Below, in pieces: positions 5,550-47,267 of a DNA stretch of 64,000 bases. Source of the stretch: Eledone cirrhosa. Lineage: Eukaryota. The position numbers and the translations under genes are program-made. The DNA is taken from contig OZ024751.1 in the NCBI GenBank assembly GCA_964016885.1, positions 10,354,001 to 10,418,000 of the forward strand, given 5' to 3'. The notes beneath the pieces are model-generated. The model made no database searches, was not told where the DNA came from, and saw nothing but the letters and a program-made list of their open reading frames with translations. Every line of letters begins with the position of its first letter. Position 1 is the stretch's first letter.

Positions 5550-6049
5550 ATTTATCAATGGAAGATTAAATTCAGAGAAGTTTCTTCATCAAACTGTATC
5601 AGCTCCATGGTTAGATTCGATCTCTACATGATTTATTTGTAACCTAGGTAGATGTGGACATGTGAGATTGAAGTAGCTCAAGATATAATAGAATGCAAAG
5701 TCAATGTAAACATATTAACCTTTGAACCAATGCTAAAAATAGCAGCCAAATAACCTCATACCATCTTTAAAACAAATGAATAACACATGTAAGCAATAAA
5801 TGGGCTCCCAACCCATCTGAGAGGTCAATAACTCGAATTAAGTACTGACTTAATTTATGATGACCCCCCATCCCACCACACTCCTCTCCAAACATTGATA
5901 ATGATGATGGTGGGTTTGATATACAAAAAGATGGGATGGTCACAGGTGGAAAGCTTTGATCATAAATTCTGATCAGCTGACCTAAACATTAAAACCAAAA
6001 CAATTAAAAAAAAAACAAGAACATCATATCAACCCTGACCCCTTTTTCT

Positions 6050-9202: not shown

Positions 9203-10270
9203 TGTTTGTGGCATATATTAATGACATAGATGCCAACTTAAAGAATGCCACAGTACTGAAATATGCAGATGACATCAAGCTGTACCTTGAGATAAAAAGG
9301 ACAGATCCTGAACACTATAGATCTTGCCTGCAATCTGACCTGGACACAATGCAACAATGGATTGGCAACTAAAGCTAGCTGTGGACAAGTGCACCACCAT
9401 GCATTTTGGGAGTAAAAATCCAGCATCCACATACTCCCTCCACAACACTAATATCAAGAAGTCTTCTTGTGAACGTGACCTGGGCATTATGGTCAGCAGC
9501 GATCTGCGTTGGACGAAGTACATCTCTAAAATTATCAAGAAGGCCGAGTGTGTCTTAGCATCACTCAGCAAGACCTTTGTCAACCGCTTCCAGCTATCTA
9601 TTTAAAGCTGTACATAGCTATGGTGCGGCCACACTTAGAATTTGCATCACTAGTCTGGAACCCTTATCTTGTTCAGAACATTGACCAACTGGAAACTGTT
9701 CAGAGACGTGCAATACCCTCCATCAGGCATCTACCATACTCTGAACGCCTTTCTTCCCTGGGCATGGATACATTGAAGCTCCGACGTCTGGCAATTGACT
9801 TGGTAAACGCCCACAAAATTATTAACCATCTTGCCAACAACAACCCTGAGCACCTTTTTGATTTCCATGTGTCTAACACACGTGGGCATGCCCACAAAGT
9901 CAGAAAACAGCACAGCTCCCATGACTTTCGGAAACATTTTTTCACACTCAGAGTTGCTGAAGCATGGAACAAACTGCTTCCATCAGTTATTAGCTGTCTA
10001 GACACTGCATCCTTTAAAACCTCCATGGAACAAACTACCTGCATCAGTTATTAGCTGTCAAAACACTGCACCCTTTAAAACCTCCATGCTTCCTGAGATT
10101 CGCCAACACTACACCTAATATTCCCCCTCCATACACATACACACATGTATATCATGACTCATGCACTATTCACTTCCCTGACATTTGTATATTATTCTAT
10201 GTACTATACATGCACCTTTGACGAGTTGTAGTGCACCTGAGCACTTTACACAATAATTTCATTATTATTT
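9203..10270 (+). mobile_element. 5'-truncated CR1-group LINE (same family as 33925-36556)
   Basis: YADD, ERDLG, VRPHLEF and TRGH motifs; near-identical 3' UTR and tail. Confidence 0.92.
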
Positions 10271-11884: not shown

Positions 11885-12612
11885 CTAGGGCGGGTAAAAT
11901 TCCCAAGATCCATGGACGAGTTCTCTCCAGCGGTCTCTGTCCCTCATTATCGCTGCCATGTCCCGCGTCTCCAACAGACCAGTGTCTATCCTTAGGGCAT
12001 CAACATACGTTAACCTTGGTCTTCCTCTTCCAGTGTGTCTATGTTGAGGCTCCCACAAGAGCACTGAGTGCAATGTCAACTCTGGATGTCGGTGAGCATG
12101 TCCAGCTAACCTCAGTCTCCTCTGTGTCACTTTTGAGCTGACTTTTGGGATGCTCCCATACAGCTCTGAGTTTTTCATCCTCAGTGTATACTGATTAATG
12201 TTCAGAGCCATCCTCAGCATTCTCGTGTAGCACCCATCCACCATCTGAGTGAGTTTCTTGGTCAGTGTCCAAGTCTCAGACCCGTACAGCAGCACAGACT
12301 CCACTACAGCAATGAAAAGGCGGATTTTCAGGTCCGACTTCCACACTGATCTCAAGCTGTGGCACACCGCCCAGGCTTTGCTCTTCCTCTCAACCACATC
12401 ATCTTCCGTATTCCCAATCTTTGCTCCCAAATACAGGAAGTCCTCAACCAATTCTAGCAGCTTCCCGCCTACATTAGTGATCCCCTCTGGCTTCTCAACA
12501 TTCTCTAGCAGATATTTTGTTTTAGTCTCATTCATTCTCAGCCCCACACTTATCAACACAGTCTCAACCTCCTGCATCAAATCCTCTGCCTCCTTCACTG
12601 TATTTGTCACCA
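11885..12612 (-). mobile_element. RTE-type LINE 3' fragment (RT thumb/C-terminal region), different family
   Basis: 242-aa ORF with GLRMNETKT, FLYLG, LLYGSETW, RRLRLAGH, GRGRP and DRDRWR. Confidence 0.9.
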
Positions 12613-12642
12613 AAACTATATATATGTATATCTATAGATCGA

Positions 12643-13373: not shown

Positions 13374-13516
13374 CAGCCTCTTTGAAGCTTGATTCATTGC
13401 ATTGGTAGAAAGATTTGATGGGCTGCATGGCTTCTTTCAAGAAATTCCCCATAAAATGTCTCGCGTTGTCTTCACAGTCTATCATGCCTACACAGTGTTG
13501 AAATTCAGACATAAGC
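13374..13516 (-). CDS. Exon 9 (143 nt): [21 protein letters not shown]...[12 protein letters not shown]
   Basis: ttttttttcag acceptor, gtatgt donor, phase 2->1. Paralogous to exon 5. Confidence 0.88.
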
Positions 13517-16500
13517 CTGAAAAAAAATGAATACAGAATACACACATCTACATATTAGTATATAAATATATATTAATAATAACTTTACCAGTTTCACAGT
13601 TGGACGATTTTCAAAAGTTAAGAGGGATGGAGTGATGTGTCCACACCTCGAAACCAATTGCAATTACATAACAGTATCTACTATTACGTAAGCATGTGGC
13701 TTGACTCCAATACAATTAACTCATCAGATACTTGCCTGAACACTAATAGTTCACTGCCAATATCTAGACTGTACAAGGATGCCTCATAGTGCACAGTAGA
13801 TTATAAAGTATTTTAAGGGTTCTTTTTTTTATATCTTAGAGAAAATATTTACCCGCAGATGTAACGCATTGTCTCTCCCTTATGTCTGTCATAATAATAT
13901 TCCATCTTGCTCTGCATAAGCTCTTTACAAAGACTGTAGGTAACATTGGCACTGTGACTACTCCAGCATTGACGATAATTGGTCATATCTAAATAAAATA
14001 TATCATAAATGAAGATAAAACTGTTTGGTCTTAGTCAGGTTGCTGGTCATAGTTAGATTGTTGGTCATATCTAGATAAAACTGTTTGGTCTTAGTCAGAT
14101 CGTTGGTCATATATAGATAAGATATATCAAAAATGAAGGTAAAAATGTTTGGTTATAGTCAGATAGTTGGTCATATCTTGATAAAATGTTTGGTCATAGT
14201 CAGATAGTTGGTCATATCTAGATAAATCTCTTTGGTCATAGTCAGATAGTTGGTCATATCTAGATAAAACACTTTGATCATAATCAGATAGTTGGTCATA
14301 TCTAGATAAAACGCTTTGGTCATAATCAGATAGTTGGTCATATCTTGATAAAAATGTTTGATCATAGTCAGATTGTTGGTCATATCTAGATAAAATATAT
14401 CAGACATAAAGATGAAAATGTTTGGTCACAGTATTGATTAAAGGAACTGTAGACAGTCAAATAATTAATTGTATTATATTGTCCAAGTAATTGTCATTTT
14501 TAACTACGTGAAGAAGAAGAAGAAGAAGAAGAAGAAGAAGAAGAAGAAGAAGAAGAAGAAGAAGAAGAAGAAGAAGAAGAAGAAGAAGAAGAAGAAGAAG
14601 AAGAAGAAGAAGAAGATAATGACAATGAAGACACTTTCCTTACCTTCCAAGATTTCTGGTTTACAAAGATGAGTAAAGGACTGTACAAATGTCTCAAAAG
14701 GATATTGGAATCTGGTTTTACAGGAAGCTGTCTCTCTGTTTATACAGGGGAATATCTTCTGTTGCATAGTTCTACATGTTGAAAGGAAGACAAGAACAAA
14801 AAACATGAAAGAAAATTCTACATATTTATCTTAACAATGTTGTAATGATATTGTTGTTGTTGTATTGGCATCATTGACATTGTTGTTTCCCTCCCCTCTG
14901 TGATATAACCCCTCCCACTGCACCATCTAAGCTGTAACTCTCCTCCTTCATCACCTCTCACTAAAACTTCTATGATATAGCCCTTCCCACTGAATCTACT
15001 AAGCTGTAGCTATTTTCCTTCACCTCTCACTAAAACCTCAGTGGTATAACCCCCTCTGTGGTATAACCCCTCTATAGTATAACCCCTCTATGGTATAACC
15101 CCTCTGACTAAATCTGCTAAGCTGTAACTCTCCTCTTCTCACTAAAACCTATATTTATAACCCCCCCCCCCCCCCCCCCCACACACTAAATCTTCTAAGC
15201 TGAAACTCTCCTCTTTATCTCCACTTCTCACTGAAACCTCCCCTTCCTCCAACTGAACCTTCTGTGTAACTCTCCTTCATCTCTACCTCTCATTAAAACC
15301 TCTGTGATATAACCCCTCCCACTAAAGCTGCTAAGCTGTAACTCATCTTCATCTCCACCTCTCATTAAAACCCTCACAATATAACCTAACCGATCTCTTG
15401 AAAATCTCCAAATTATAGATGCAATAGTAACTTACCCACACATATTCCTCAATGTATCATAATCAGAGAACATCCTGAATTCATTGTCTTTGAATGAACT
15501 AAACCAACTTTGGAATGGTTGAATACAAGTCATTGCTTTGTGGTGGTCACAGTAAGTAGTTTCACTTTTAACAGAAACTGACTCAACTTCTGGTGCAGGC
15601 ACTGACAAATATAAAACGGGGTGAAAGTATTAACCCATTAGCATTTAAACCAGCCGTATCCGGCCTGAACTCTCTCACCTCTTTCTGTTCAAACCGGCTG
15701 TAACTGGCTGCTCATACTACATTAACTCTTTAGCATTTACATTACTCTATATTTACTATTGTATTTTCACGGTAAAGGTTTTACCTCACATAATTATCAC
15801 ACATAATATCAAATCTATGAGATTTTGATATTATATATTTTGAGAACAATACCTTAACATCAGTATGAGCAGCCAGTTACAACCATTTGAACAGAAAGAG
15901 GTGAGAGAATTCTAGTCAGATATGGCTGGGTTTAAATTCTAAAGGGTTAAGGTATTTTTCTCAAAATAAATAATATCAAAATCTCATAGATTTGATATTA
16001 TGTGAGATAATTATGTGAGGTAAATATAATAGTAAATATAGAGTAATGTAAATGCTAAAGGGTTAAATATATTTTGGATGAGAGAATCAACCATTCAGTA
16101 TTGCATTAGGGTCAGAACTGGGAGGGGCCATAGGCACAGGGCCGAGAGTTGTAGAAATGTTTTGGGGGTGTTCTGAATTTTTGGGAACTTTATACTATAT
16201 TTGTTACTTTTATATATGCTTTTATATAATTTATATATTCAGATCATCATCATATCTTGTCGCGCCAGTGCCGTATCCATTGAAGTGCAGCGTCGTTTGC
16301 TTCCATCAGGTCTTGGTCGGAGCATGTGGGTCCCAGTGAGTACCCATGGAGGATGTGGGCTATGGTCTGGGATGTCTCACTGCAGGGGCACTCAGCGCAG
16401 GTGGCCAATCCCCACTTGTGGAGGTTGTCTCCAGTTTTGCCCGTTTTGGCTCTGGCCCTATTTAGGGTTACCCAGTCCTTTCTACTAAGAGAATATTGTT

Positions 16501-17482
16501 CCCCAGTATGGGCAAGGTCGTGCCATGCAAACAGAGTTGACCTAGAGTTGAACAAATCATGCCAGGTGATCACCGGAACATTAAAAGCAACTCCTCTTCC
16601 AGCTGTATACACTCTTGCCGGTATTCCACCCGCCGCCCCACATACTACGAGAGGTCAACGCAAAAACTGAATGGTACAAACAACAACACGATCCCAGGCA
16701 TCCACTCTGTGGCCACCAGGAAATAAGAAGACGATTAAAGTCTCGAAAAATCTTCTTAACCGTGGATAGCCTGGAGCATGCACAATCGGCGGCTTACAGG
16801 CTGGAAAAGTGGGGGGGAGAGTGAGCGCCGCCCACCCAACGCAGCCTTACCGAGCCCAAATATATTCAGATTATATGTAGTGTGAAAAGTACATATATAT
16901 ATGTGTGTGCGTATATATATATATATGTGTGTGTGTGTATGTGCGTGTGTGTGTGTGTGTGTGTGTGTGGTTGAAATGAACAAACAAAACACAGGAGGCA
17001 ATTGTACAGAGTTATATTAGGTTCATGCTTGGTGGAAGTTGAGGAGGTTTCAACGTTTCGGACTTAGGTCCTTCATCAGAAAAGTTTGGATAGGGGGAGA
17101 ACAGGAACTCCAAGAGGGTTTTAAGGAGGGAAGTTACAAAGTAAAGAACACAAAGTGAAGAGAAAAATAGAAATAAAAATAAATATAAATGACGAAATTT
17201 AAAAAAAATTAATATATATATATAATAAATAAATAAGAGAGACAGTTTTATTCATACATCTTCATTTTATTACATAATTCCATTATACGCATTTCAAAGA
17301 TGCCAGAGTGGTTATATAATAACCCCCTGGCATGTCTTCATCAGATGGAGTAAGATGTATTTTCCTATCCATTGATACGTTACTGGTTTCTCGTGGTGTT
17401 TACATCGCTGGTCAGTACCCATCAGCAACTGAATAATATATATATATACACACATATATATATACATATATATATACATATA

Positions 17483-17528
<46 letters not shown>

Positions 17529-17698
17529 ATATATATTATATATATATATATATATTATATATATATATATATATTATATATATATATATATATAATATAT
17601 ATGATATATATAATATATATATAATATATATATATATGATATATATATAATATATATATATATATATGATATATATATAATATATATATATATATAAT

Positions 17699-17745
<47 letters not shown>

Positions 17746-20700
17746 TTTATACATATATATACATACATATATATATACACACACATATATATATACATAT
17801 ACATATATATATATATATATGTATGTATGTATATATGTATATCAAGAATACAAGAAACAAAGAAACAAGAGGATGCATTAACACATAATCTTATTAGTAT
17901 CACACTTAAAGAGAGTTTAATGATCAATGTATTGGGCATTTTCCCTCATCATATATATATATATATACACATATACACCCACTCTTATCTTTCTCTGTCC
18001 TTCTCCTTATACCTTCTCTACCCCCATATATGGTAAACATCAAAACCTTCAACTGTAACAATGGTCAAAGAATAATTGTTCCACATCACAGTACATGGAT
18101 TGATAGTGTGAAACTCTTTAGCTTTACCCCCCTCTTCACTCTTCTATCACACTAACTGACTGTATTTCATGCTATTTTTAACTTATTTACATTTTCTTCA
18201 ACAAAAATCTCTTTATTGAATTCTACTTCATGGTAATCAGTTGAATTCTACAAATATAGGCTTTTTGATGAAGTGTAATAAACAATTAAGTATATATTGT
18301 AGTCAGCATATGTAGACAATTTATAATAGATACAGAAACATATGTCAAAGCAAATAAATTCATAATCTCTTCAGGCCGATGTTTTATTTTTCTTGTTGCA
18401 ATACTTGCTTATATATATATATATATAGTTCTTTGATTCTTATAATTCATATAACTGCTCTGTAAATCATCTGATGTTTTTACATTGAGTTATTTAGCTT
18501 ACTGGTAATAAGGTAGTAATATATTACTGCCTACCACTATTTAGGGTTTATATAAAAATATATATAACTGCAAAAAGTTTTTGTATTTGCATAACCATAA
18601 ATAGTATAATTAATACTATATATATATATATATATATACATATATCTATAATATATGTGTGTGTGTGTGTGGAAAGAACTTTGTACAAAGAAATCCAGTG
18701 TATTGTATGGATGTAAATACACAGAACATTTAAATAATGGTTTCTGATTGAGGCACAAGGCCAACAATTTGGGGGAGAGGAAGTCAATTAAATTTACATT
18801 AGTGTGTTACTGGTACTTTATTTTATCGACCCCGTAAGGAAGAAAGGCAAAGCTAACCTCGGCAGGATTTGAACTCAGATCATAAAGGGCCATAACTCTA
18901 TGCTGCAAAGCATGGCATCTGACTCTACCGATACTGCCAATTCACCGCCCTCACCATTTAAATAATAAATGCAGTTCTTCATAATTTCTGTACTCATTAC
19001 TTCCAAATAAGTAAATGTATTTCTACAAACCATGACTTCCCATGGGCACAGACTCAAACATACATCTAGTAGGCACCTCTTAACCACTATACCCCTACCC
19101 ACCCACTCTTGTCCACACCACCCTTACATTATAAACAAAATATATCCAACCCACACTGTAAAGTGGCCATGTGGGTGTCACAACAAAAAACACACAGCCC
19201 ACACTGTAAGGTGGTCATGTAGGTGTCACAACAAAAAGCACACAGCCTACACTGTACAGTGGTTGTTTAGGAGTCCCGACAAAAAGCACCCAGCCCACAC
19301 TGTTAAGTGGTAGTGTAGGAGTCAAGACAAAAAGCACCCAGCCCACACTGTAAGGTGGTCATGTAGATGTCACAACAAAAAGCACCCAGCCCACACTGTT
19401 AAGTGGTTGTGTAGGAGTCCCGACAAAAAGCACCCAGCCCACACTGTTAAGTGGACGTGTAGGTGTCACAACAAAAAACACCAGCCCACACTGTAAAGTG
19501 GTCATGTAGATGTCACAACAAAAAGCACCCAGCCCACACTGTTAAGTGGTTGTGTAGGTGTCACAACAAAAAACACCCAGCCCACACTGTTAAGTGGTTG
19601 TGTAGGTGTCACAACAAAAAACACCCAGCCCACACTGTTAAGTGGTCATGTAGATGTCACAACAAAAAGCACCCAGCCCACACTGTAAGGTGGTCATGTA
19701 GATGTCACAACAAAAAGCACCCAGCCCACACTGTAAGGTGGTCATGTAGGAGTCATGACTAAAAGCACCCAACCTACACTGTACAGTGGTCGTGTAGGAG
19801 TCATGACTAAAAGCACCCAGCCCACACTGTAAATGTGGTTGGTATTAGAAAGGACATCCAGCTGTTGCAATCTAGCCAGAAATGGTTCTATATGAGCAAG
19901 ACATGGTCACCTGATCCAATTTGCTTCAAATGGGACAACCCTTCTAACCCATGCTGGTGTGGAAAATGGACGTTAAACAATGATGATGATGAAAAGGTAA
20001 AATTGTTTGTATAAATTGAATCCTAGACATACCTGGTGATTCAGCTGACATGTCACAATTCATGAAAAGACGACCAAATTGGTAAATCATATTGTTAAGA
20101 TTAAACATAAAGTTATCAGATTCTTTGTTGCAGACTTTCTTCATTTCATGAGAACAGTCCTTCATCTTTGCCATTCCTCTGGAAATAAAAGAAACAAAAT
20201 TCAAAGTTTTTGGTTTAACCCTTTAGCATTTAAACAGGCCATATCCAGCCAGAATTTTCTAACCTCTTTCTGTTGAAACTGGCCATAACCAGCTGCTTAT
20301 ACTTATGTTAAGGTATTGTTCTTAAAATACATATCAAAATCTCATGGCTTCGATATTATGTGAGATAAAGACTTTACCATGAAAATACAAGAGTAAATAT
20401 AGAGTAATATAAATGCTAAAGGGTTATTTGGATTAAAAGAAATAATGGTTTCTGAAGGGGGAGTTGATTAAATCGACCCCAGTGCCTTACTGGTACTTTA
20501 TTTTATCAACCCCATAAGGATGAAAGGCAAAGCTAACCTTGGCGGGATTTGAACTCAGAACGTAAATGGCCATAACTCTATGACACAAAGCATAGTGTCT
20601 GACGCTCTACAGATACTGCCAAAATAAATAACTGTTTCTACTTTATGGCACAAGGCCAGCAATTTGCTCTACCAATCTACCAATAATGAAAAGTGTAAAT

Positions 20701-21935
20701 ATTTATTAATTATTATTATCCATCATACATCCCTTTATATTCTGAATTTAAATCTCGTCCTTATGGGATCAATAACATAAAGCACCAGTAACGCACTCGA
20801 CTCAATGTAATCAACTTTCCCCAACCCACAAACTATTGGCCTTGTGCCTAAGTTAGAAATAATTATTAATGCTTAACTTAGGGCGATGGATTGGCAGTAT
20901 CAGTAGAGCATCAGACACCATGCTTTGCGGCATAGAATTATGGCCCTTTACGTTCTAAGTTCAAATCCTGCTGAAGTTAACTCTGCCTTTCATCTTTACG
21001 GAGTCAATAAAATAAAGTACCAGTAATGCACTGCAGTAATTGCTGGCCTTGTGCCAAAAGTAGAAACAATTATTAATGCTTAACTTAAATGGTAAAAAAC
21101 AAAAACAGAAGTTTGCTCTCCTCTGTACGAATTTTTATATATATGTATATCTAGCTCTCTATCTCTCGCTATATATATGCTATTAATTACAACAGTAATA
21201 TGTATAGGTACTTACGTTTCATTTGGTTATTCACCCCAACTCATACAATTACAAATGTCTTCCCATCATGGAGATTTTAAAAAGTATTGGAGAGTTCTTC
21301 ACTTACATTACTTAAGGTATTTGTCAAATTATAGATAAGTTCAGAATTACTTACCCTTAGAAATCTTCTATACTTTCAAGAATCTGTACATGTCACTGTT
21401 GTAACTAATCATACTAAACTCATCCTATGGACTGAGTGCTCTAAGTCCTTGGATATTTATACCAAATGTATAAACACCCCAACCCACTACCCCTACTCCA
21501 TTCTCCCACTCTGACCAACACCACCCTTTCTCTGTAAAGTTATGTTGGTACTACAACATCCAGTCCAAACTAAAGATGTCGTGTAGGTGTCACGACAAAA
21601 AAACACCCAGTCCACGCTGTAATGTGGTCACATAAGAGACATGGTAAAAAGGCTCCCAGTCCACACTGTAAATGTGGTTGGTGTTAGGAAGGGCATCCAG
21701 CCATAGAAAACTTGCCAGATACAGTCCTATATGAGCGAGACACGGTCACCCGATCAATCTTGCTTCAAGTGGGACAATTCCTGCCTAACCCATGCTAGCG
21801 TGGAAGATAGACGTTAAACGATGATGATGATGATGAGGATATATATCAATAAGCATGTACATATGCACACGTGTGTATGTATATGTGTATGTGTATTTAT
21901 ATATATATATTTATCTCTCTATATATATGTTATAT

Positions 21936-21973
<38 letters not shown>

Positions 21974-23040
21974 GAATAAGGTTAGTGTACTCTATAGATT
22001 TGCCTCTATGCCACTAAGAAAAAGGCACTACTGTATCCACAGAATAATCTAGATTTCAAGAATCAGAAATATTCCAGAGATTATTAATTTCAACTTGAGA
22101 ATCTGTAGACAGTGGAGTCACCAACTACTTTTCATATAATTAAGACATGTTTTTAATTGGATTCAGTCATTAGACTGTAACCATGTCAGACCTGTCAACT
22201 CTTCCCATTTGACAGGGACATCTCCCATGCACTTTGGAGTGGGTGAGAGATGTCTTCTCTTCTGAAAATGGGTATGGATTTCATTATGTAAAACCTCCCC
22301 ATTTTGCCTCATTTCTCCCTGTTTCAGGGCACTTTTTTTCATGGTACTCCCCGTTTGTGTTTTTAGAGGGTTGGCAGATCTCCCATTTTGCAGCACTACC
22401 TTCAAAGGTTTTAGTCAATCATATCAACCCCAATATTTATTTAAATTATTAATTTCATTGATCTATTTTATCAGACAGTTAAGCTGGTTGTTTAACACAA
22501 TGCCAGTTATTTTCTTTGTTCTGTTTTTTTTTTTAATTGGTTGTGTAAAGAATTTGATTGAAAAGTAAAAAATGTGGTGGGAAAACATTATTGAAATTGC
22601 TGACAATTTTTATGATAAATATTTTAGTGAATAAATAATTATTAAAGAAAAGATGAGATAGGTAAAAATGGAATCATTAACTTTAGAGTCAAAATAAAAA
22701 AATATCAAAATATCTCATCAGATGCATTGGTTTCATTGAGAAAGTGGGCATATGAAAATTTGACATACACCCACTGCCACCACCATATATATATGTAGAA
22801 GTTATATTTAATTTGTTGGGATACAACAAGCAAATATTTTTATAACTGATATAAAGCACTCACTATCCGGGAGCTTCCAACCAACATGGTCGCATTCTTT
22901 AAGGGTATGTCAATATTTGTTTATAAAACTGATCTATATTATATTTTATCTGATCAAAGCGCACCATAATTTGCTTTGGTGTCCTTGAAATATGTATAAT
23001 GAAATAAATATGGTTTTATAAATATAGTTTCCATTTGTTA

Positions 23041-23096
<56 letters not shown>

Positions 23097-26000
23097 TAAC
23101 AGATTAAATATTTGCTCTAGGGTTCTTATATACTTGATATATATTTATCCTTATCGAGCCCTCTTTGGATTTTAGTCTTCAAATTTATTATTATTACTAT
23201 ATATATACTGTATATATATGTATATATATATATACACACATACAAAATGGCTGACAGAAAATATGTATATTTTCTCCAACATTTATTCTCATTTTTCCTG
23301 TCCCTTCCTCTTCTCACTCTTTATCTTTCTATTTTATCTTTTATTTCTAACTCTATCTTCTGATGAAGGACTAGTATCTGAAACATTAAGACTCTTTCCC
23401 TGCTATTTCAAATGTTAAACTAATATATTTCTTCAATGTACTGTGTTACTTCCATTCTTATTTCTGTTTACCGTTTACATACATACATATTTATATAGTT
23501 AGGTTTAAGGTTGGGGTTGGGTTTGAGGTTAAAATTTGAGTTAGGGTTAGGGTTAGGGCTGGATTTAGGGCTGGATTTAGGGCTCATTAAGATTACCATC
23601 CACACATTAACCAGTGAATCTGATGAAATATTTTGTTTCTCTTATTTCGAACCACACAGTGATAACCAATAAGAGACACTTACTTGCAGATGGATGTACG
23701 GTATCTTATGTCATAGTTATAAAAAGCCCAATACTCTGGTCTACGTTCACCGGAACCATAGTAATTGTAACCATAGTTACGGCCATCAAACTCATAGTCT
23801 CGGTCATAAAACCTGTTGCGGTCATAATAATTATTACGATAGTGATTATTATAGAAAGGTGTATTTTCATAATTATCCCAGTCCCTGTCTTGGATGTCGG
23901 GGTTTACTTTGTCAGCTTCTGGCTGGGGCTGTTTCGCTTCAGGTTCTTCACGGGTTTCTCGGTTCAGTCTTTCAAAGTTTTGGTTATAGTAATCATTAGT
24001 GAAATAGTCTGACCTTTGATTGTGGTCTTTCTGCCAACCGTCCCGATTGTATTTCCTGTCGTAGTAATTACCATCATTGCCATCGTAATCGTTGTCATAG
24101 CGACGGCCATTGTTATCATATTCACGACGGTTGTTGTCGTAAGGGTTGTACTTGCGATTCCTGTCGTATTTATTAGACCAGTACCTGTAGTCATAGTCGG
24201 AGTTGCGATTACCATTGTTGCCATTACCAAAGTTGTGCATCCAATCATGCATATTAACATCATCATCGTTATCATGACTTTCGTTTTTAACATCATCTTT
24301 TTTGGCTGCTGATGTGACAATCTCCGTTTTAGCAGCAGCAGCAGCAGCAGCAGCAGTTGAATCAGATTGAATTCCAGCAACATCCTCTGTGAAGAAAGGT
24401 GCATCAGGATGGGAAACTTGGTCAGCCTGGTCAGGTTGGTCACCTTGTCTGTTTGGATCATCGTTGTAATAACCGTGCTGCCAATTGTAGGAATTTGGAT
24501 AATGATGGTAGAAGTCTCTGTTGATGTATTCGTACTCATGCTCAAAGAAGTTTCTGTTATTCAAGTCTGCTGTTGTGTAACAGTGCCTTATTTTCTCTTG
24601 GACGTTCTTCCTGTTTGATTGGAAACATTTCTGGAATTTCTGATAATCTATAAAGTTTGGAGACGGAGGAGTGGAGTGAGAGGTAAAAGAAGAGAGAGAG
24701 AGAGAGAAAGAAAAAGGAAAAAGAAAACAAAGAAAACATATATAAAATAACAACAAAAACAACAGCAGCCACAAAAACAAAAATAACCACCACAACAACA
24801 ACTACAATCATAACAAGCACAACAATAACCACAACAACAACAACAGCACCACAAAAACAACAATAACCACCACCAAAACAACTCTAACAACAGCCACAAC
24901 AATGACAATAACCTCCACATCAACCTCAACAACAACAACAACAACAACAACTCCTACAACCATCATATCAACAACAACAACAGAGAAAAAATTAAACACA
25001 TTATGTAAAATATGTGCAAAAATAAACAAATATATTTATCCCTTTCAATACCAAACCACTTGAAACTCCTTTGATTTTATAATACAAAACTGCTTAGTTT
25101 ACCTTTCATAACTGCATTTCTAATGAAATACATTCTATTTTAATTAATTAATGAAGAATTTTAAGGGATTTACTAAAATTATTAATTATTTCATTACTAA
25201 GATAGTAACTTAAAGTCAGGTTCTTATATAAAATTATATTGGAAGATTTTAATTTAAATTGGAAACCTTTAAAATAGGTGATTTTATTTCATAAAACCAG
25301 AGATGATTTTGGCCAAGTTGGCAACTAAAAGGTTAAAGTATTTATAATTATCTAAATTTCTCCATCATAATTCTATGTATGTACCTTCGTTAAGTTATGT
25401 TCCAAACACCCGCTTAAGGTTAGTTACTGTGATACAAAACTGCTTATTTCATAAAGTATTTATAATTATCTAAATTTCTCCATTATAATTTGATGTATGT
25501 ACCTTTGTTAAGTTATGTTCCAAACTCCAGCTTAATGATGAGAAAGTTAGTTACCGTATATACTTGAATATAAACTGATACAAATATAAGCCAACCGCAC
25601 TATTTTATGTCTGAGAAATTAGCAAAAGTCCAAACTGTATTTACGTAGAGTTTGAAGTTGATGAAAATCAACAAAATATATCATTGATTTTTTGGTCACA
25701 TATTCCTTGGCTTATATTCGAGTATAGACAGTATTTTACTAAATGCCTCCAAATCATTGGTAATGAAGGGTTAAATAAGAGTTAAAATTAAGTTTTCATT
25801 AATTGAAGAACTTCAATTAATGAAAACTCAATGTGGCTTTCTTTTTAGAGGACAAAGGAAGAATGTTTTCTCTTTCAGTTCTTCATATTCCATATTTTGC
25901 AATAAAAGACGACCCCCCCCCCCCCCCGCTTCTGTCATCAATTTTTAGTCCTATATTCTTTGGCTTATATTTGTGTATAGACAGTATTTTACTAAATGCC

Positions 26001-27601
26001 TACAAATTATTGGTTATTTTCAAAACATAAGCAGTATCTTTCAGTAAAAATAGGGTAATGAAAGGGTTAAATAAGAGTTAAAATGAAAGGGTTAAATAAG
26101 AGTTAAAATGAAAGGGTTAAATAACAGTTAAAATGAAAGGGTTAAATAAGAGGTAAAATGAAAGGGTTAAATAAGGGGTAAAATGAAAGGGTTAAATAAG
26201 AGGTAAAATGAAAGGGTTAAATAAGAGGTAAAATGAAAGAAGTGAATAAGAGGTAAAATGAAAGAGTTAAATAACAGTTAAATTGAAAGGGTTAAATAAC
26301 AGTTAAAATGAAAGAGTTAAATAAGAGTTAAAATGAAAGGGTTAAATAAGAGTTAAAATGAAATTTTTTTAAACTGAAGTTCTTCCCATAGAACTGTTGG
26401 TACTTGTAGTTCCTTTTTAGTGGACAAAGGAAGAATGTTTTCTCTTTTGGTTCCTCGTATTCCATATGTTGTAATGAGTCTGTGTTATACACATCCACAA
26501 GTTGTTGACTCGGTACTGTATAAATGGGAATTGACAAGTCAACAACATGTGGATGTGTACATCACAAACTAGTAGTCCAAGCTTTCATGATGGGAACATG
26601 TGGTGAAGAAGACAGTTGTTGTAAAAAATAAAAAGTTATCAACAAAATCACAAATTAAGTTTTTCAGCTGGTTTAATAATAGAAGTGGCAGTGGAACTGG
26701 GGGGGTCATGGCCCAACTCCCCCGCCGCCAATAACTATATCTTTCTCTCCAAACTACCAAAACACACATCTATCTGTATATGCGGTACAATTTATGTTCA
26801 TGTTATTTTTATCACATATGGAAGTTTTTATATCTTGGTTGATATTTTATAATTGTTTCTACTTTTGGCACAAGGCCAGCAATTACCCAGTGCATTACTG
26901 GTACTTTATTTTATCGACCCCGGAAGGATGAAAGGCAAAGTTAACCTCGGCGGGGTTTGAACTCTTTGATATTTTATATTTTATAATAACAGCTAAACTA
27001 ATCACTACAACTAAATTAACCAAATCCCCCCCCCCTTCCCCCATTCAGAAATGCTTCCACCACCCCTGTAATGGTTTCTGATTTAGGCACAAGGCCAACA
27101 ATTTTTGGGGAGGGGAACAACGATTAACTCAACCCCAGTACGTTACTGGTACTTTATCTTATCAACCCTGTAAGGATGAATGGCAAAGCTAACCTCAGCA
27201 AGATTTGACTTCAAAACGTAAAGGGTCGTGACTCTAAGCCACAAATCATATGGTCTGATGCTCTACTAATATTGCCAATCCACTGCCCTCGGCTGGTTTA
27301 ATAATTGAATAAATTAGTAAATATTTACTAGATATTTACTACTCACTGTTTAAGGGTTAGTCTGCGTCCTGGTCCTGACAAACAGAATGGAGAAGACGAC
27401 AAAGGAGACACACTGACACAGCCACTCCAACTCCTGGAGCTTGCACTTGTGGTTACCCAAGTGATTGATTAATTAATTAACTCTTTTAAAACCAACCTGT
27501 CTGAAATCGTCCATTTTTCCATTGTCTTTGCCCACCTTTTTTTAAAATTAATCTCATAAGATGTTAGCCATGTGGGACATTCTTTCAAATACACACACAC
27601 G

Positions 27602-27634
<33 letters not shown>

Positions 27635-28002
27635 TCCAGAGTCGGACTAAATCGATACAGATTGAATCTTGAGCTGATCAATAGCGTAACACACATCACT
27701 ACTCAATAAACGCCCTTCTCCAACACAACCTTTTTCCCCCCGGAAAACCCCCAGTTGATGGATGCGAAATCCGAAATATAGGGACAATTAAATCACTTCC
27801 AAGGTAACTCTATCATGCGTTATTATTTGTTACACTATTCCTACATTCTTTTACGCTCTCTACGTCTCTTTCTACACTTCCTCTTACATCTCTCTCTCTA
27901 CCACCTGATTCTGTTACCCGGAGATTTACCCATCTGCATTGTTGGGGCTTCCAAAATGGCTATTTCATCATTCCACAATGTTTCAAGCGAATTTCAACAC
28001 TG

Positions 28003-28063
<61 letters not shown>

Positions 28064-28148
28064 GATTATCCTAGATGCAGTGGAAACATTTGTAAGCACA
28101 TGGAATAAATTACCTTTTTATGATGTCTACCTGTTATTATTCATTCTT

Positions 28149-28198
<50 letters not shown>

Positions 28199-28586
28199 TG
28201 GGTGTGTGTGTGTGTGTGTGTGTGTGCACACATGCACATACACACACATATATATATTAATGTTATTGGGTAAAAAGAATGAAATTGTCAGATTAAAAGA
28301 GTGAAGAATGTGTTGATGATGTCTATAGTATATACATACCTTTCCAACCATTGTAACAGAAGTAATGGAAGGTTGAGTTCAGTTGTTTCAAAGCACTCTG
28401 TCGAGTTGTCTGACCACAGGAATCTTCAATTTTATCCATACAATACACTATATCGGTCTGTATAACCCTGCAGTAAGACAGCCAAATAATGGTTTTTAAA
28501 TGTTTTAAAATAATGTTTTAGATTTAATAATTTCAATAGTCAGGCAAAGGAGGAGGGGGGGGGGGGAGAAGAAGAAGAAGAAGAAG

Positions 28587-28617
<31 letters not shown>

Positions 28618-31600
28618 GTTTGAAGACTCTGCCCCTCGACCCTCCCAAGAATAAGTTGGAAAAGAAGAAAAAGAAGTATATGTTTGTGTCTGTATGTATA
28701 CAGGAGTGAGTGTGCGTATGTATACAAGTGTGTTTATGTGTGTGTCCTCCTGGCTTTTTTTTTTTTGCCCCCAGGTTGTGTGTACACCTTTTACTTTTTA
28801 TGTGGTGTGAGTTTGGTTAAAAAAAACTCACTCTGTCATATTTTACGATATTTTGTTGTCTTGTTTTGTAAAAAAGAAAAGATAAAAAGAAAATGAAAAT
28901 AACTTACTCGCACATATTGTCAAAATCTTGTTTATTGAACTCCAGGTGAGAAGTACGTCTGAGACGGTGATATTGCTGTTTGATAGTTTGATAAGCTGGA
29001 TAGAAACACCTCATCATTGACTGTGTGATACAGGTACCCATTGTGGTACTGGCGGGGTCTACACTCCGCCCACATACTAAAAGAAACAAACAAATATATA
29101 TAATGTAAGTATATATGTGTATATATACAAATATATATAATGTAAGTATATATGTGTATATATACAAATATATATAATGTAAGTATATATTTGTATATAT
29201 ACAAATATATATAATGTAAGTATATATGTGTATATATACAAATATATATAATGTAAGTATATATGTGTATATATACAAATATATATAATGTAAGTATATA
29301 TTTGTACATATACAAATATATATAATGTAAGTATATATGTGTATATATACAAATATATATAATGTAAGTATATATGTGTACATATACAAATATATATAAT
29401 GTAAGTATATATGTGTATATATACAAATATATATAATGTAAGTATATATGTGTACATATACAAATATATATAATGTAAGTATATATGTGTATATATACAA
29501 ATATATATAATGTAAGTATATATGTGTATATATACAAATATATAATTGTTTCTACTTTTGGCACAAGGCCAGCAATTAATCCAGTGTATTACTGGTACTT
29601 TATTTTATCGACCCCGTAAGGATGAAAGGCAAAGTTAACCTCGGCGGGATTTGAACTCAGACAATAAAGGGCCGTAACTCTTTGCTGCAAAACATGGCAC
29701 CAGACCCTCTACTGATGCTGCCAATCCACCGCCTACAAATATGTATAAAGTAAGTATATATGTGTATATATACAAATATATATAATGTAAGTATATATGT
29801 GTATATATACAAATATATATATTGCAAGTATATCTGTGTATATATACAAATATTTATAATGTAAGTATATCTGTGTATATATACAGGGGTGGCTGGAAAG
29901 AAACTCCCTAATTAAAATTGTTAATAACTTTATTAATTGTTAGTCAATTTTCATAAAACATGTTTTATTTTGAACAGTATAACATTAGAATTACAGTACA
30001 GTGTTAAAATTTTACATTGGCACCAGTGTTGTTTGCCAGATTCTGCAAATGAAGCTCACAGTTCTGTAATTGCTGTGACTACACATGAAGACATAGTTCT
30101 TTACTTGCTGTCGGGGTTAGATTTAGATTTTGGGGGCCCCTCATACATTAAAAATTTGAATACACAGCAACCCCACCCCACCACAATTTTACATATCAAA
30201 GCTAGCTTGGTCCATGTAATTGGAATTGAAAAGTTATACATACAGGTATTAAATTCAAAAATTCTAACCATCCTAAAACTAAAAAGTCCAGTTGAGGGCA
30301 CAAATAAATTGTGACGGCCATACTTGCTGTGTCTATAAAAAAAAAGCGCAGCTCTGTCCTTGTATTTCCAAATAAAGTCACAACTCTGTCCTTGTTGTAT
30401 CTACAAATAAAGGCAAAGCTCTCTCCTTGTTGTAGCTACAAATAAAGCCTCAACACTCTCCTTGTATTTACAAATAAAGTCACAGTTCCATCCTTGTTGT
30501 ATCTATAAAGACGCAGCACTATCCTTGTTTTATCTACAAAGAAAGACACAGTTCTGTACTTGTATCAACACATGAAGACACAGTTCTTTACTTGCTGTGA
30601 TTATGCATAAAGTCACACATGATGGAACTATGAAAAGAAAGACACAGCTCTGCCCTTGTTTTATCTACAAATAAAGACACAGCTCTGCCCTTGTATCTAC
30701 AAAAAAAAAAAGGCACAGTTCTGTCCTTGTTTTATCTACAAAAAAAAAGCACAGCTCCATAGTCTCTGTATCTACAAATAAAAGCACAGTTCTATACTTG
30801 GTATGACTACAAAAAGAAAAAGGCACAGTTCTGTACTTGCTTTATCTACAAATAAAGGCACAGACCTGTAATTGCTTTATCTAAAAAATAAAGGCATAGC
30901 CCTGTACTTGCTGTCTCAATAAATAAAAACACAATTCTGTAATTCTATCATCACCTCAAGCTCACAATTCTATACTTGCTGTGACAACTTGTGAAGCTAA
31001 CAGCTCTTTACTTGTTGTGACAACAAATAAAGACACAGCTCTTTACTTGTGACAACAAATAAAGACACAGCTCTTTACTTGTTGTGACAACAAATAAAGA
31101 CACAGCTCTTTACTTGCTGTGACTACAAAAAAACAGGTAAAGCTTTGTACTTGTATCTACACATGAAGCTCACAATTCTATACTTATTGTATCTACAAAG
31201 AAAGGCACAATTCTGCTCTTGTTATATCTACACATAAACATACATGAAGCTCACAAAATTCTGTAATCATTCCTGACAATTACGTCTCGGTCAATTTATT
31301 CTTACGTCTGTTTCTTTTCTTATTTCTTACTTTCATTTTATTTATTTCTTTGGGATTTTATTCTTCTCCACTTTCAAAATTGCCAGACATTTATTAACGG
31401 TTAAATTACAAGTAATTAACTATTTATTTCCCATTCTTTGGCATCGAGACAACTTGTCTTCAACTATTGTTTTCATCTCTTCAAATAATACTATTTAAAT
31501 TTAAAAAAATGTTTTCCTTTAATATTTATACACACACACATACATGTGTGTGTATATGTACGTTTGTATGCATGTATATATGTGTGTGTGTTTGTGTGTG

Positions 31601-47071: not shown

Positions 47072-47267
47072 CATATATAAATATTTCTAAATATATATAT
47101 ATATATATATATATATGATTAATTATTATACAATACAGGTGTAATACAGGTGTAATAATTTGAAGTGTTATGTAGAAAAATGACATGATTCTGAGGTACA
47201 AAATAAAACAGAAAATCTTACCCAGAACTGAGAAAAATATGGCAGCAAATATTAGAAGGAACCTCAT
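13374..47267 (-). CDS. Multi-exon gene (>=9 coding exons, >=675 aa): secreted protein with two 12-Cys DUF19-like domains and a Tyr/Asp/Asn/Arg-rich insert; last exon not determined
   Basis: Exons 47267-47222, 29076-28908, 28467-28340, 24647-23684, 20178-20033, 15601-15436, 14771-14644, 13988-13853 and 13516-13374 all have GT/AG boundaries. Intron phases alternate 1,2,1,2,... and the exons splice into one stop-free ORF beginning [22 protein letters not shown]. The Cys pattern is repeated twice. Confidence 0.88.
13853..13988 (-). CDS. Exon 8 (136 nt): [23 protein letters not shown]...MRYICG
   Basis: tattttatttag acceptor, gtaaat donor, phase 1->2. Paralogous to exon 4 without the insert. Confidence 0.88.
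13975..14430 (-). repeat. 39-bp minisatellite containing copies of the exon 8 splice acceptor
   Basis: Minus unit ttttatctagATATGACCAACTATCTGACTATGACCAAA versus true site ttttatttagATATGACCAAT. Confidence 0.88.
14511..14616. repeat. (AAG)n microsatellite; others at ~28568-28615, ~47605-47659 and ~51897-51968
   Basis: Direct reading. Confidence 0.97.
14644..14771 (-). CDS. Exon 7 (128 nt): [18 protein letters not shown]...[11 protein letters not shown]
   Basis: cttcctttcaacatgtag acceptor, gtaagg donor, phase 2->1. Paralogous to exon 3. Confidence 0.9.
14890..15390. repeat. Diverged ~65-bp tandem repeat in intron 6
   Basis: Repeated ctctgtgatataacccctcccact...ctaagctgtaactctcct...cctctcactaaaac. 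Confidence 0.75.
15436..15601 (-). CDS. Exon 6 (166 nt): [30 protein letters not shown]...LRNMCG
   Basis: ttttatatttgtcag acceptor, gtaagt donor, phase 1->2. Paralogous to exon 2 (C-x7-C...NMC). Confidence 0.9.
15630..16066. mobile_element. piggyBac-type MITE nested, inverted, inside another copy of itself
   Basis: The outer copy is split at its internal TTAA; the inner copy 15722-15950 is in the opposite orientation. Confidence 0.85.
16233..16871 (-). mobile_element. Vingi/Ingi-like LINE fragment with 5' inversion and 12-bp TSD
   Basis: Minus 16490-16250 encodes WVTLNRAR..G...LHKWG...C.C...QT..H followed by a (TGA)n tail. Plus 16490-16860 encodes [12 protein letters not shown]...ITG.LK.TP...LAGIPP. 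ATATATTCAGAT flanks both ends. Confidence 0.8.
17048..17084 (-). ncRNA. Minimal hammerhead motif (Penelope pLTR type)
   Basis: CUUUU-CUGAUGA-A-GGAC-CUAA-GUCC-GAAA-CGUU-GAAA. Confidence 0.6.
17279..17349 (-). ncRNA. Type I hammerhead ribozyme motif, intron 5 sense strand
   Basis: UCCAU-CUGAUGA-helix II (AUGCCAG/CUGGCAU)-GAAA-UGCGUA-UA-AUGGA. Confidence 0.7.
17436..17840. repeat. Compound (TA)n/(TACA)n microsatellite; large similar tracts at ~46360-47115, ~31520-31740 and ~52600-52930
   Basis: Direct reading; source of the IYIYIY ORFs. Confidence 0.97.
18260..18351 (+). ncRNA. Degenerate hammerhead motif (C3U)
   Basis: GCUUU-UUGAUGA...UACA-GAAA-CAUAUG-UC-AAAGC; helix I and palindromic helix III are preserved. 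Confidence 0.45.
19145..19835 (+). repeat. ~40-bp minisatellite (~17 units) expanded inside a family-B SINE
   Basis: Unit cacccagcccacactgt(t)aagtggtcatgtag(a/g)tgtcacaacaaaaag, running into the SINE 3' end at 19835-19990. Confidence 0.9.
20033..20178 (-). CDS. Exon 5 (146 nt): [18 protein letters not shown]...[11 protein letters not shown]
   Basis: ttcttttatttccag acceptor, gtatgt donor, phase 2->1. Confidence 0.9.
20215..20425. mobile_element. piggyBac-type MITE; further copies at ~58808-58975 (truncated) and ~61665-61864
   Basis: TTAACCCTTTAGCATTTA...AAATGCTAAAGGGTTA. Confidence 0.82.
23290..23490 (+). mobile_element. Penelope-like pLTR fragment with minimal hammerhead core at 23360
   Basis: CTGATGAAGGACTAGTATCTGAAACATTAAGA plus downstream similarity to 13250-13330. 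Confidence 0.55.
23684..24647 (-). CDS. Exon 4 (964 nt): DYQKFQKC...RHC + Y/D/N/R-rich insert + ...RTSICK
   Basis: Long polypyrimidine tract and tttatag acceptor; gtaagt donor; 320 open codons of non-microsatellite sequence (inside ORF 23680..24801); phase 1->2. Confidence 0.92.
26057..26365. repeat. 25-bp minisatellite
   Basis: aaatgaaagggttaaataagagtta, about 12 units. Confidence 0.9.
28340..28467 (-). CDS. Exon 3 (128 nt): [19 protein letters not shown]...[10 protein letters not shown]
   Basis: ctgtcttactgcag acceptor, gtatgt donor, phase 2->1. Same length as exon 7, with Cys at codons 9 and 17 in both. Confidence 0.9.
28908..29076 (-). CDS. Exon 2 (169 nt): [30 protein letters not shown]...FDNMCE
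   Basis: tttgtttcttttag acceptor, gtaagt donor, open frame, phase 1->2. Confidence 0.9.
29091..29885. repeat. 37-bp minisatellite interrupted by a SINE-A (29545-29735)
   Basis: caaatatatataatgtaagtatatatgtgtatatata units on both sides of the SINE. Confidence 0.92.
30320..31260. repeat. Diverged ~35-bp minisatellite
   Basis: Repeated acagctct(g/t)t(a/c)cttg(ttg)tatctacaaataaag. Confidence 0.8.
32572..32642 (-). ncRNA. Type I hammerhead ribozyme motif (Penelope-type), intron 1 sense strand
   Basis: UAUUUUAU-CUGAUGA-helix II (GCAAAUAUC/GAUAUUUG)-GAAA-UGCGCA-UA-AUAAAAUA: 8-bp helix I, intact core, palindromic helix III. Confidence 0.75.
33925..36556 (+). mobile_element. CR1-group LINE, degraded ORF2 (APE fragment + RT) with 3' UTR and (ATT)n tail
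   Basis: Motifs [77 protein letters not shown]; several frameshifts. Confidence 0.92.
36570..36893 (+). mobile_element. RTE 3'-end fragment with expanded (GAT)n tail; similar fragments at ~56170-56370 and ~62000-62250
   Basis: VEG.C..GQPRNNW..V...DL motif, tail ccaacccat..catggaa..cggac.taaa.cgatgatg. Confidence 0.7.
37937..39632 (+). repeat. ~1.7-kb degenerate (GGT/GTT/GAT)n trinucleotide array
   Basis: Direct reading; explains ORFs 37868..39706 and 37903..39672. Confidence 0.97.
40640..41090. repeat. Near-perfect 144-bp tandem triplication of a SINE-A segment
   Basis: acactttattttat recurs at 40781, 40925 and 41069. Confidence 0.9.
41519..41915. mobile_element. Probable MITE with imperfect TIRs
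   Basis: taccctctcgtcccaaataa ... ttatttgagatccgagagta inverted ends. Confidence 0.35.
42817..43265 (-). mobile_element. tRNA/CORE-type SINE family B (representative; resembles Octopus OR-type SINEs)
   Basis: Head ggcacatggcttagtggttagagc..gagttcaattc; CORE-like tccttgagcaag; aggaagggcatccagctgta; tail catgctagcatggaa..cggacgt.aaa(cgatgat)n. Copies near 21480, 32075, 32932, 37217, 43757, 44159, 45110, 55455, 56390, 57830, 58990 and 60770. Confidence 0.85.
47222..47267 (-). CDS. Exon 1 coding part: signal peptide [15 protein letters not shown](V)
   Basis: ATG, basic residue, hydrophobic core, then G|gtaaga donor (phase 1). Joins exon 2 to give a VCG|RSV cleavage-like site. Confidence 0.8.

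What the first reader, a model, noticed from the sequence alone, without database searches (positions are those of the whole stretch)
23720..24580. ~290-aa Tyr/Asp/Asn/Arg-rich disordered insert grafted into one loop of a disulfide-bonded domain
Seen: exon 4 is the paralogue of the 136-nt exon 8 but is 964 nt long. Between its 2nd and 3rd Cys, ~20 residues are replaced by a Cys-free region (e.g. [72 protein letters not shown]). It includes two similar linkers ([12 protein letters not shown] / [10 protein letters not shown]), a poly-Ala8 from a (GCT)n tract and several dibasic sites (RK, RR, KK). Established: Tyr/Arg-rich low-complexity regions drive coacervation; Tyr is the DOPA precursor in mollusc adhesives; reflectins are Y/R/D/N/W-rich, although the reflectin MD(X)5MD motif is absent here. 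Inference: candidate self-assembling biomaterial protein (egg cement/capsule, mucus, optical or mineralising matrix) or a precursor of convertase-released peptides.
Basis: partly seen in the sequence, partly recalled or inferred. Interest (0 to 1): 0.75.

Follow-up and report, generated by a model that had tools for sequence, protein, structure and literature searches.

The report
Tyrosine-rich loop in secreted octopus protein
An octopus-type gene encodes a likely secreted, cysteine-braced protein with a 300-residue tyrosine-rich stretch, predicted to be floppy, set into one loop, and because distant relatives keep that stretch's chemistry while its sequence changes, it likely serves to make the protein stick to itself in a gel or matrix.

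Summary
A 964-nt exon (23684-24647, minus strand) has 297 Cys-free residues between two cysteines where its paralogous 136-nt exon has 23. The gene has ten exons, a likely signal peptide and four six-Cys units (two 12-Cys helical domains), distantly related to DUF19/CPG4 proteins but under Pfam's cut-off. The insert is old and retained: 297-317 residues in three Octopus species, Argonauta and an unnamed distant relative whose intron-free contigs keep it; a still more distant one-domain relative has a 220-residue Tyr-rich insert at the same site whose core no longer aligns. Insert-bearing domains form one clade. The layout (acidic spacer + neutral Tyr/Asn/Asp/Arg block, twice) is kept; poly-Ala is not. 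The peptide-precursor idea fails (dibasic sites at chance level). It is not a reflectin (no Met, no motif, no homology to this genome's reflectin-type genes) though its composition is similar. Best reading, inferred and untested: a secreted self-associating matrix or gel protein, a folded particle with a sticky loop, analogous to squid S-crystallin. No tissue or function evidence was found.

The parts
47222..47267 (-). Coding part of exon 1: 15 codons, hydrophobic, likely signal peptide
   Evidence: Read; phase and GTAAGA donor; resembles the N-terminus of O. sinensis P0003. Assigned by eye; tblastn did not list it; no signal-peptide predictor was run
28908..29076 (-). Exon 2 (169 nt): six-Cys unit 1, first half, plus one extra Cys
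28340..28467 (-). Exon 3 (128 nt): unit 1, second half
23684..24647 (-). Exon 4 (964 nt): unit 2, first half, carrying the insert
23689..24579 (-). 297-aa Cys-free stretch between Cys8 and Cys9 of domain 1 (23 aa in domain 2)
   Evidence: pLDDT mostly 18-25 over the matching residues of P0003
24463..24579 (-). 5' edge of the insert; its first 22 columns are conserved (12-19 of 22 identical across lineages)
   Evidence: edge motif recognisable in P0013
24253..24462 (-). Spacer A: 70 aa, no Tyr, net charge -12, fast-changing
24331..24354 (-). (GCT)8 poly-Ala8, lineage-specific slippage tract inside spacer A
23977..24252 (-). Tyr block 1: 92 aa, Y16 N23 D16 R12%, net -1
23890..23976 (-). Conserved ERLNxxT element and spacer B: 29 aa, Glu/Pro/Gln-rich, no Tyr
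23689..23889 (-). Tyr block 2 with the invariant 3' edge YWAFYNYD: 67 aa, Y22 N15 R15 D12%, net -2
20033..20178 (-). Exon 5 (146 nt): unit 2, second half
15436..15601 (-). Exon 6 (166 nt): linker and unit 3, first half
14644..14771 (-). Exon 7 (128 nt): unit 3, second half
13853..13988 (-). Exon 8 (136 nt): unit 4, first half; insert-free paralogue of exon 4
13374..13516 (-). Exon 9 (143 nt): unit 4, second half. The last coding exon (24 aa, hydrophilic, then stop) lies about 5.5 kb outside the window at G000:C11:10348444-10348521

Best explanation
This is a roughly 700-residue, likely secreted and soluble protein of two 12-cysteine domains predicted to be helical, the first carrying a 297-residue tyrosine-rich insert predicted to be disordered, which likely works as a multivalent sticky loop that would make the protein self-associate into a condensed gel or matrix outside the cell. 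Shown: gene structure, four six-Cys units, insert position, length, composition, block layout, retention in relatives. Predicted: helical folds, disorder, domain 1 closing around the loop (weak support). Inferred: the two charge-balanced Tyr/Trp-Arg/Asp blocks supply aromatic and cation-pi contacts; the acidic spacers keep it soluble until low pH or Ca2+ in a secretory granule, or a partner polymer, screens them; the folded domains limit valence and may bind a partner. Tyr oxidation to DOPA or dityrosine could then fix the gel, but nothing here tests it.
For: Insert length 297-317 aa, 0 Cys, Y 10-16%, D 12-14%, R 7-12%, aromatics 17-22% in 8 of 8 inserts measured, while identity to the distant P0007 falls to about 25-38% in Tyr block 1 and 8-18% in spacer A against 66-79% in the folded parts of domain 1 (P0003 and P0002 comparisons). 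A more distant one-domain relative (P0013, 39% identical domain) has 220 aa at the same site with Y 13.6% whose core aligns no better than shuffles (97-146 of 300 reach the score): composition is kept while sequence is not. All four insert-bearing domains group 100/100 against 8 insert-free domains. P0007/P0008 (657/662 aa) lie on contigs of at most 2398/2802 nt and the P0013 cluster on contigs of about 1.8 kb, so they are intron-free and keep the insert (RNA origin inferred). No internal donor near the 5' edge pairs with an acceptor near the 3' edge. Hydrophobic N-terminus only; highest later 15-aa hydropathy 0.91 (P0003). The two parts of domain 1 scored 0.36 together, best of 3 controls 0.01, runs agreeing in at least 66% of contacts, partner pLDDT at least 55: weak support; the mark was reached by 51 of 78 solved and 2 of 108 mismatched pairs, but at 0.60 or under by only 5 of the 78 and by all 4 mismatches that passed. 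Tyr blocks resemble reflectin-type genes of this genome in composition (cosine 0.85-0.87, 0.90-0.92 without Met, against 0.61 for domain 2). Precedents: S-crystallin loops (PMC5703641, PMC4976375, passages), Tyr-rich Mfp3Sp coacervates (PMC8237365, passages).
Against: No expression, localisation or biochemical evidence. Aromatic residues are not consistently better conserved than others: 16/44 vs 42/211 against P0007 (p 0.028), 35/44 vs 138/211 against P0003 (p 0.077), 23/44 vs 111/211 against Argonauta (p 1.0), on an alignment that itself favours aromatic matches. The gene is single-copy at the sensitivity, whereas reflectins, suckerins, beak proteins and S-crystallins come as clusters (PMC9068888, passages). 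The insert is net acidic (-6 to -26), unlike cationic mussel adhesives (recalled). No listing in term searches of five proteome or atlas supplements of ink, skin mucus, posterior salivary gland, chromatophore and brain, which is weak because identifiers differ and files may be cut. Low pLDDT also reflects a shallow alignment (12 rows; domains only 50-70). P0013 sits on a long branch (1.33) and the clade was not tested with test_one_clade.
Confidence: 0.45

Rival explanations
1. A secreted binding or signalling protein (neuritin/RGM-N-like helical unit) in which the folded domains do the work and the insert is a tolerated or tethering loop kept polar and aromatic for solubility, sorting or partner binding.
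For: Folded parts are far more conserved than the insert; single copy; insert-free Pomacea relatives hit NRN1 at E 2.7e-4 and RGM_N at E 0.069, below cut-off; short invariant islands (ERLNxxT, YWAFYNYD) could be binding motifs.
Against: A neutral loop would not be expected to hold about 300 aa, 17-22% aromatics and a block layout across lineages, nor Tyr-richness after loss of alignability. The RGMB match (Z 4.2, rmsd 4.6, 71 aligned) lies within the noise.
Confidence: 0.2
2. A mineral- or metal-binding matrix protein (statolith, shell remnant, eggcase): acidic spacers and Asp/Asn/Tyr blocks bind Ca2+ or carbonate precursors.
For: Asp+Glu 17-21% of the insert, spacer A net -12; Asp/Asn/Tyr-rich low-complexity regions are common in mollusc shell proteins (recalled).
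Against: Argonauta, the octopod with a mineral eggcase, has the least acidic insert (net -6). Motif and name search of the Nautilus shell-matrix supplement found only DUF1943 strings (2 of 4 places shown).
Confidence: 0.12
3. A storage protein of haemolymph, yolk or perivitelline fluid whose insert stores aromatic and nitrogen-rich amino acids.
For: Composition conserved without sequence; Atlas look-alikes include DUF1397 clusters at 0.82, a lead only; DUF1397 as an insect haemolymph protein is recalled.
Against: Storage does not need a conserved block layout or invariant islands.
Confidence: 0.1
4. A precursor from which prohormone convertases release Tyr-rich peptides.
For: Signal-like N-terminus; two dibasic columns are shared by the four octopod sequences compared (KK/KR at column 247, RR/RK at 512) and bracket the Tyr blocks; one Gly-Arg-Arg in the window protein.
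Against: Dibasic counts at or below chance in 7 of 7 inserts (29-95% of shuffles reach them), RX[KR]R 0 of 7, no column shared with P0007/P0012; the column-512 site is followed by Pro and KK is a poor site (recalled); the Gly-Arg-Arg is not in P0003 or P0002; no repeated peptide unit.
Confidence: 0.07

Closest known systems
DUF19 (PF01579) / CPG4 (PF15481) / DUF1397-type six-Cys helical proteins; Pomacea canaliculata 'DUF19 domain-containing' PVD20977/XP_025076180 and XP_025096046
   Same: 12 invariant Cys in 10 of 10 aligned sequences; profile hits at E 1.6e-8 to 7.7e-8; CPG4 hit E 1.6e-6 to 7.8e-6 on the octopod proteins; Atlas look-alikes 0.80-0.87, leads only.
   Different: Those proteins have 14-27 aa between Cys8 and Cys9, here 297-317; 15-24% identity; under Pfam's cut-off; no Ser-Gly-rich region as in C. 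elegans CPG-4 (35 predicted sites, PMC2063922, one passage).
Uncharacterised orthologues: Octopus sinensis LOC118766522 (XP_036365820), O. vulgaris CAI9733820, O. bimaculoides XP_014782791 (auto-named 'clkA' kinase), Argonauta hians GAB1605186
   Same: Same protein, with the insert.
   Different: No function attached; the 'clkA' name is not backed by any kinase family hit; no paper found with these identifiers.
Cephalopod S-crystallins (long-loop type)
   Same: A folded helical domain with a loop inserted between helices; disordered loops set cross-linking and gel density (PMC4976375, PMC5703641, passages). Works-like analogy only.
   Different: GST fold, lens protein, large gene cluster (PMC9068888); the solved loop is 11 residues; here a DUF19-like fold, likely secreted, single copy, about 300 residues.
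Reflectins
   Same: Tyr/Asn/Asp/Arg/Trp-rich, near-neutral blocks; composition cosine 0.85-0.87 with four reflectin-type loci of this genome.
   Different: Met 0.3-1.7% against 8.7-12.2%; no MD(X)5MD; alignment scores at shuffle level in 15 of 16 pairs (one at 3 of 200); embedded in a Cys-braced domain behind a signal-like peptide.
Mussel foot protein Mfp3S
   Same: Tyr-rich secreted mollusc protein that forms coacervates (PMC8237365, passages).
   Different: Small and without a folded host domain (recalled); homology not tested; DOPA in this protein not testable here.

Membership tests
CPG4 domain (PF15481) | Score over the curated cut-off of 32.7 bits | tested here: not met
   29, 28.7, 26.8, 18.3, 18.5 bits for P0001, P0003, P0002, P0007, P0013; only the insert-free relative P0016 passes (32.8). 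Distant relative, not a formal member
DUF19 (PF01579) | Score over the curated cut-off of 23.2 bits | tested here: not met
   No hit on the insert-bearing proteins at E up to 10 or 0.1; Pomacea relatives reach 18-21 bits
DUF19/CPG4-like superfamily (informal) | Paired six-Cys units with C-x7-C ... C-x8/9-C-x7-C ... C spacing | tested here: met
DUF19/CPG4-like superfamily (informal) | All-helical fold with defined disulfides | tested here: inconclusive
   Models are all-helical but mean pLDDT 38 and 55; disulfide pairing not visible with these tools
Chondroitin proteoglycan core proteins | Many Ser-Gly attachment sites | tested here: not met
   0-3 SG per insert in 7 inserts against 35 predicted sites in CPG-4
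   0 in 8 of 8 inserts; 4-7 copies in each of 4 reflectin-type loci
Reflectins | High Met content | tested here: not met
   0.3-1.7% against 8.7-12.2%
Reflectins | Sequence homology beyond composition | tested here: not met
   15 of 16 pairs reached by 13-174 of 200 shuffles, one by 3 of 200
Reflectins | Tyr/Arg/Asp/Asn/Trp-rich composition (works-like feature) | tested here: met
   cosine 0.85-0.87; 0.90-0.92 without Met
Prohormone / neuropeptide precursors | Enriched, positionally conserved dibasic sites around repeated peptides | tested here: not met
Neuritin (PF15056) / RGM N-terminal (PF06535) | Profile or fold match | tested here: inconclusive
   Sub-cut-off hits on 1 of 10 members of A6; RGMB Z 4.2 in the noise
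DOPA adhesive proteins (mussel foot proteins) | Tyr hydroxylated to DOPA; made in an adhesive gland | not testable with these tools
   needs proteomics and expression
S-crystallins | Glutathione S-transferase fold | tested here: not met
   No GST family hit; 12-Cys pattern instead. Analogy of mechanism only

The most novel reading that the evidence does not exclude
An old, unnamed cephalopod-lineage family of secreted 'patchy particles': a disulfide-braced DUF19-like scaffold that took on reflectin-like Tyr/Arg/Asp chemistry independently, as one giant loop, and builds a dense extracellular material (optical gel, egg or sperm coat, glue or mineral matrix) by loop-loop condensation, with composition and block layout selected while sequence is rewritten.
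Probability: 0.2. Interest if true: 0.8.

Novelty: new variant of a known kind. Interest (0 to 1): 0.5.

Why it matters
Known cephalopod material proteins are either wholly low-complexity (reflectin, suckerin, beak proteins) or enzyme folds with short loops (S-crystallin). A single-copy, likely secreted protein that hangs a 300-residue aromatic polyampholyte from a disulfide-braced domain, and has kept it across deep splits, would add a new design and give the function-poor DUF19/CPG4-like superfamily a testable role. The series of natural variants (no insert, 220 aa, 300 aa; one or two domains) is a ready set for testing whether composition rather than sequence is what selection keeps in a disordered region. 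Until expression is known it remains a well-defined orphan variant.

Tried and rejected
RNA evidence for this organism: no RNA holder listed. Pfam on single exons: 0 of 8 hit. Shorter stand-alone forms of domain 2: 11 candidates, none significant. Fold searches: no Foldseek match at E 0.001 for either model; best VIA Z 5.0, within the range of common helical arrangements; no solved-structure sequence match better than E 0.15 and none for A6. Atlas on exon 4: no usable hit. CPG4 model on the own genome: 4 matches at E 1.2-7.4, none followed up. One search compared two alignments that share near-identical sequences and is circular; ignored. Alignment A2 misplaces exon 5. Internal duplication of the insert: first vs second half exceeds shuffles in 6 of 7 sequences (0-10 of 300) but not Argonauta (107 of 300), and the shuffles destroy block layout, so duplication is unproven. 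Core-insert homology to P0007 exceeds all global shuffles but exceeds all 20-aa block shuffles for only 1 of 3 octopod inserts. Exitron: a possible internal donor (24443) and acceptor (24386) lie 57 nt apart and could not remove the insert. Assembly artefact: rejected by orthologues. Literature: accession, name and motif searches gave 0 papers; searches returned nothing relevant; one search listed 3 papers; supplement term searches negative (one scanned file of PMC9712504 unsearchable; files may be cut; bioRxiv supplements and most subscription papers are not covered, so a proteomic sighting under another identifier is not excluded). Two papers sought were not held. First reflectin pattern found nothing. 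Earlier scan notes: none near or alike; 8 of 26 shown, none on this gene.

Full report
Observation. The minus strand holds a 964-nt exon at 23684-24647 with canonical splice sites and one open frame. A splice-site scan and tblastn with orthologues give nine coding exons in the window and a tenth about 5.5 kb beyond its left end; the in-window part is 2026 nt without a stop, about 700 aa in all. Exon 4 and exon 8 share phases and three cysteines; the last two are 297 and 23 residues apart. The 297 residues have no Cys and are N 14.8, D 13.8, Y 12.8, R 9.1%. The window lies at G000:C11:10354001-10418000, and exon 4 has one match in the genome.

The host protein. Exon 1 encodes a 15-residue hydrophobic start like that of O. 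sinensis P0003; no later hydrophobic stretch exists in P0003, so it is likely secreted and soluble (no predictor run). Exons 2-9 are four two-exon modules of six cysteines, phases 1-2-1, paired into two 12-Cys domains about 20% identical. Pfam CPG4 hits at E 1.6e-6 but under its cut-off; the Atlas returns CPG4, DUF19 and DUF1397 clusters at 0.80-0.87, leads only. The exhaustive profile search gave 8 proteins among 1.84 billion representatives: two orthologue clusters, P0013, three Pomacea proteins (cluster members named 'DUF19 domain-containing'), an unnamed 231-aa protein that passes the CPG4 cut-off, and a Gigantopelta protein. Twelve cysteines are invariant across insert-bearing and insert-free sequences. 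Models are all-helical but of low confidence and match no solved fold. Folded as separate chains, the parts of domain 1 before and after the insert scored 0.36 against a best control of 0.01, weak support only (counts under Best explanation).

The insert is old and retained. Named orthologues in O. vulgaris, O. sinensis, O. bimaculoides and Argonauta hians carry it. An unnamed cluster (P0007-P0012), 68% identical in domain 1, carries 300-314 aa; its full-length members lie on contigs of at most 2.4-2.8 kb, hence without introns, and its partial members begin and end at the exon 4 boundaries. That this is a squid- or cuttlefish-level relative is my inference from divergence, not a result. All 8 inserts measured are 297-317 aa, Cys-free, 17-22% aromatic and net acidic. 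The layout is conserved edge, acidic Tyr-free spacer A, neutral Tyr block 1, an invariant ERLNxxT island, spacer B, neutral Tyr block 2, invariant YWAFYNYD edge; 33 core columns are invariant in six sequences, 9 of them Tyr. P0013 has one domain, 39% identical, and 220 aa with 13.6% Tyr at the same site; its core scores as shuffles do. In a 12-row tree the four insert-bearing domains group at 100/100, which fits one origin, though P0013 is a long branch, 7 of 9 inner branches are open and no clade test was run. Poly-Ala8 is lineage-specific; relatives have poly-Asn or poly-Gly/Ala slippage elsewhere.

What it is not. Dibasic pairs are at chance level in 7 of 7 inserts, no RX[KR]R exists, and no site is shared by all lineages, so a convertase precursor is unlikely. 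Four reflectin-type loci were pulled from the same genome: the Tyr blocks resemble them in composition, but lack Met and the motif and align at shuffle level in 15 of 16 pairs. Ser-Gly sites are 0-3, so it is no proteoglycan of the CPG-4 kind.

Mechanism. Shown: architecture and conservation. Predicted: helical domains, disordered loop. Inferred: a sticker-and-spacer loop on a folded particle drives self-association after secretion (0.45). That Tyr/Arg-rich disordered regions promote condensation is established knowledge, recalled; the paper I sought was not held. Precedents read as passages: S-crystallin loops and lens gels (PMC5703641; PMC4976375), Mfp3Sp coacervates and DOPA (PMC8237365), reflectins and gene clusters (PMC6397165; PMC9068888). 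Against: no expression data, inconsistent extra conservation of aromatics, single copy, acidic net charge. Rivals: binding or signalling protein with a tethering loop (0.2), mineral matrix (0.12), storage protein (0.1), peptide precursor (0.07).

Novelty. No paper was found with the accessions, gene name or motifs, and term searches in supplements of PMC10142993, PMC10138644, PMC6397165, PMC9712504, PMC7693380 and PMC8700984 were negative (only supplements were searched for five of these, texts not read). Supplements under other identifiers, cut files, bioRxiv supplements and subscription papers may still hold a sighting. Verdict: a real, conserved, undescribed variant of a DUF19/CPG4-like scaffold; function open; interest 0.5.

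Noticed in passing
P0013 cluster (P0013, P0019-P0021; unnamed source): One-domain relative with a 220-aa Tyr/His/Pro-rich insert at the same site, one Cys inside the insert and no domain 2; its best matches in this genome are exons 2, 5 and 3 of this gene.
   Followed up: partly
window 13374-29076, exons 2-9: All four six-Cys units are two-exon modules with intron phases 1-2-1 and the middle intron right after the third Cys, a clean record of 1-2-4 module duplication.
   Followed up: yes
G000:C1:45749253-46094912 (L025-L028): Cluster of at least four reflectin-type open frames of 335-508 aa with 4-7 motif copies each; used only as comparators.
   Followed up: partly
window 24025 and 24269: Two variants in runs X2/X3 against the window: one synonymous (Asp), one Asn-to-Ser in spacer A.
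   Followed up: yes
window 37937-39633 and 48555-50910: Two long degenerate 6-nt tandem arrays (GTGGTG-type, 283 copies; ACACCA-type, 397 copies) with extreme strand skew; their long open frames look like repeat by-products.
   Followed up: no
window 34779-35333 (+) and 53296-53979 (+); also 9300-10050 and 11885-12631: Reverse-transcriptase (LINE-like) fragments; the first two hit RVT_1, the others judged by eye.
   Followed up: partly
window 6048-6898, 19146-19839, 26057-26363, 29090-29544, 40641-41098: Intronic or flanking minisatellites with periods 71, 48, 25, 37 and 144 nt.
   Followed up: no
L020:5439-5720 (-) and L023:3882-4187 (-): Upstream neighbours outside the window: an ankyrin-repeat exon and a protein-kinase exon; no paralogue of this gene within 164 kb.
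   Followed up: partly
P0006 (O. bimaculoides UniProt model) and P0004: The public O. bimaculoides models look incomplete: P0006 jumps from exon 2 into the middle of exon 4, and P0004 stops after exon 6 and is auto-named a kinase.
   Followed up: no
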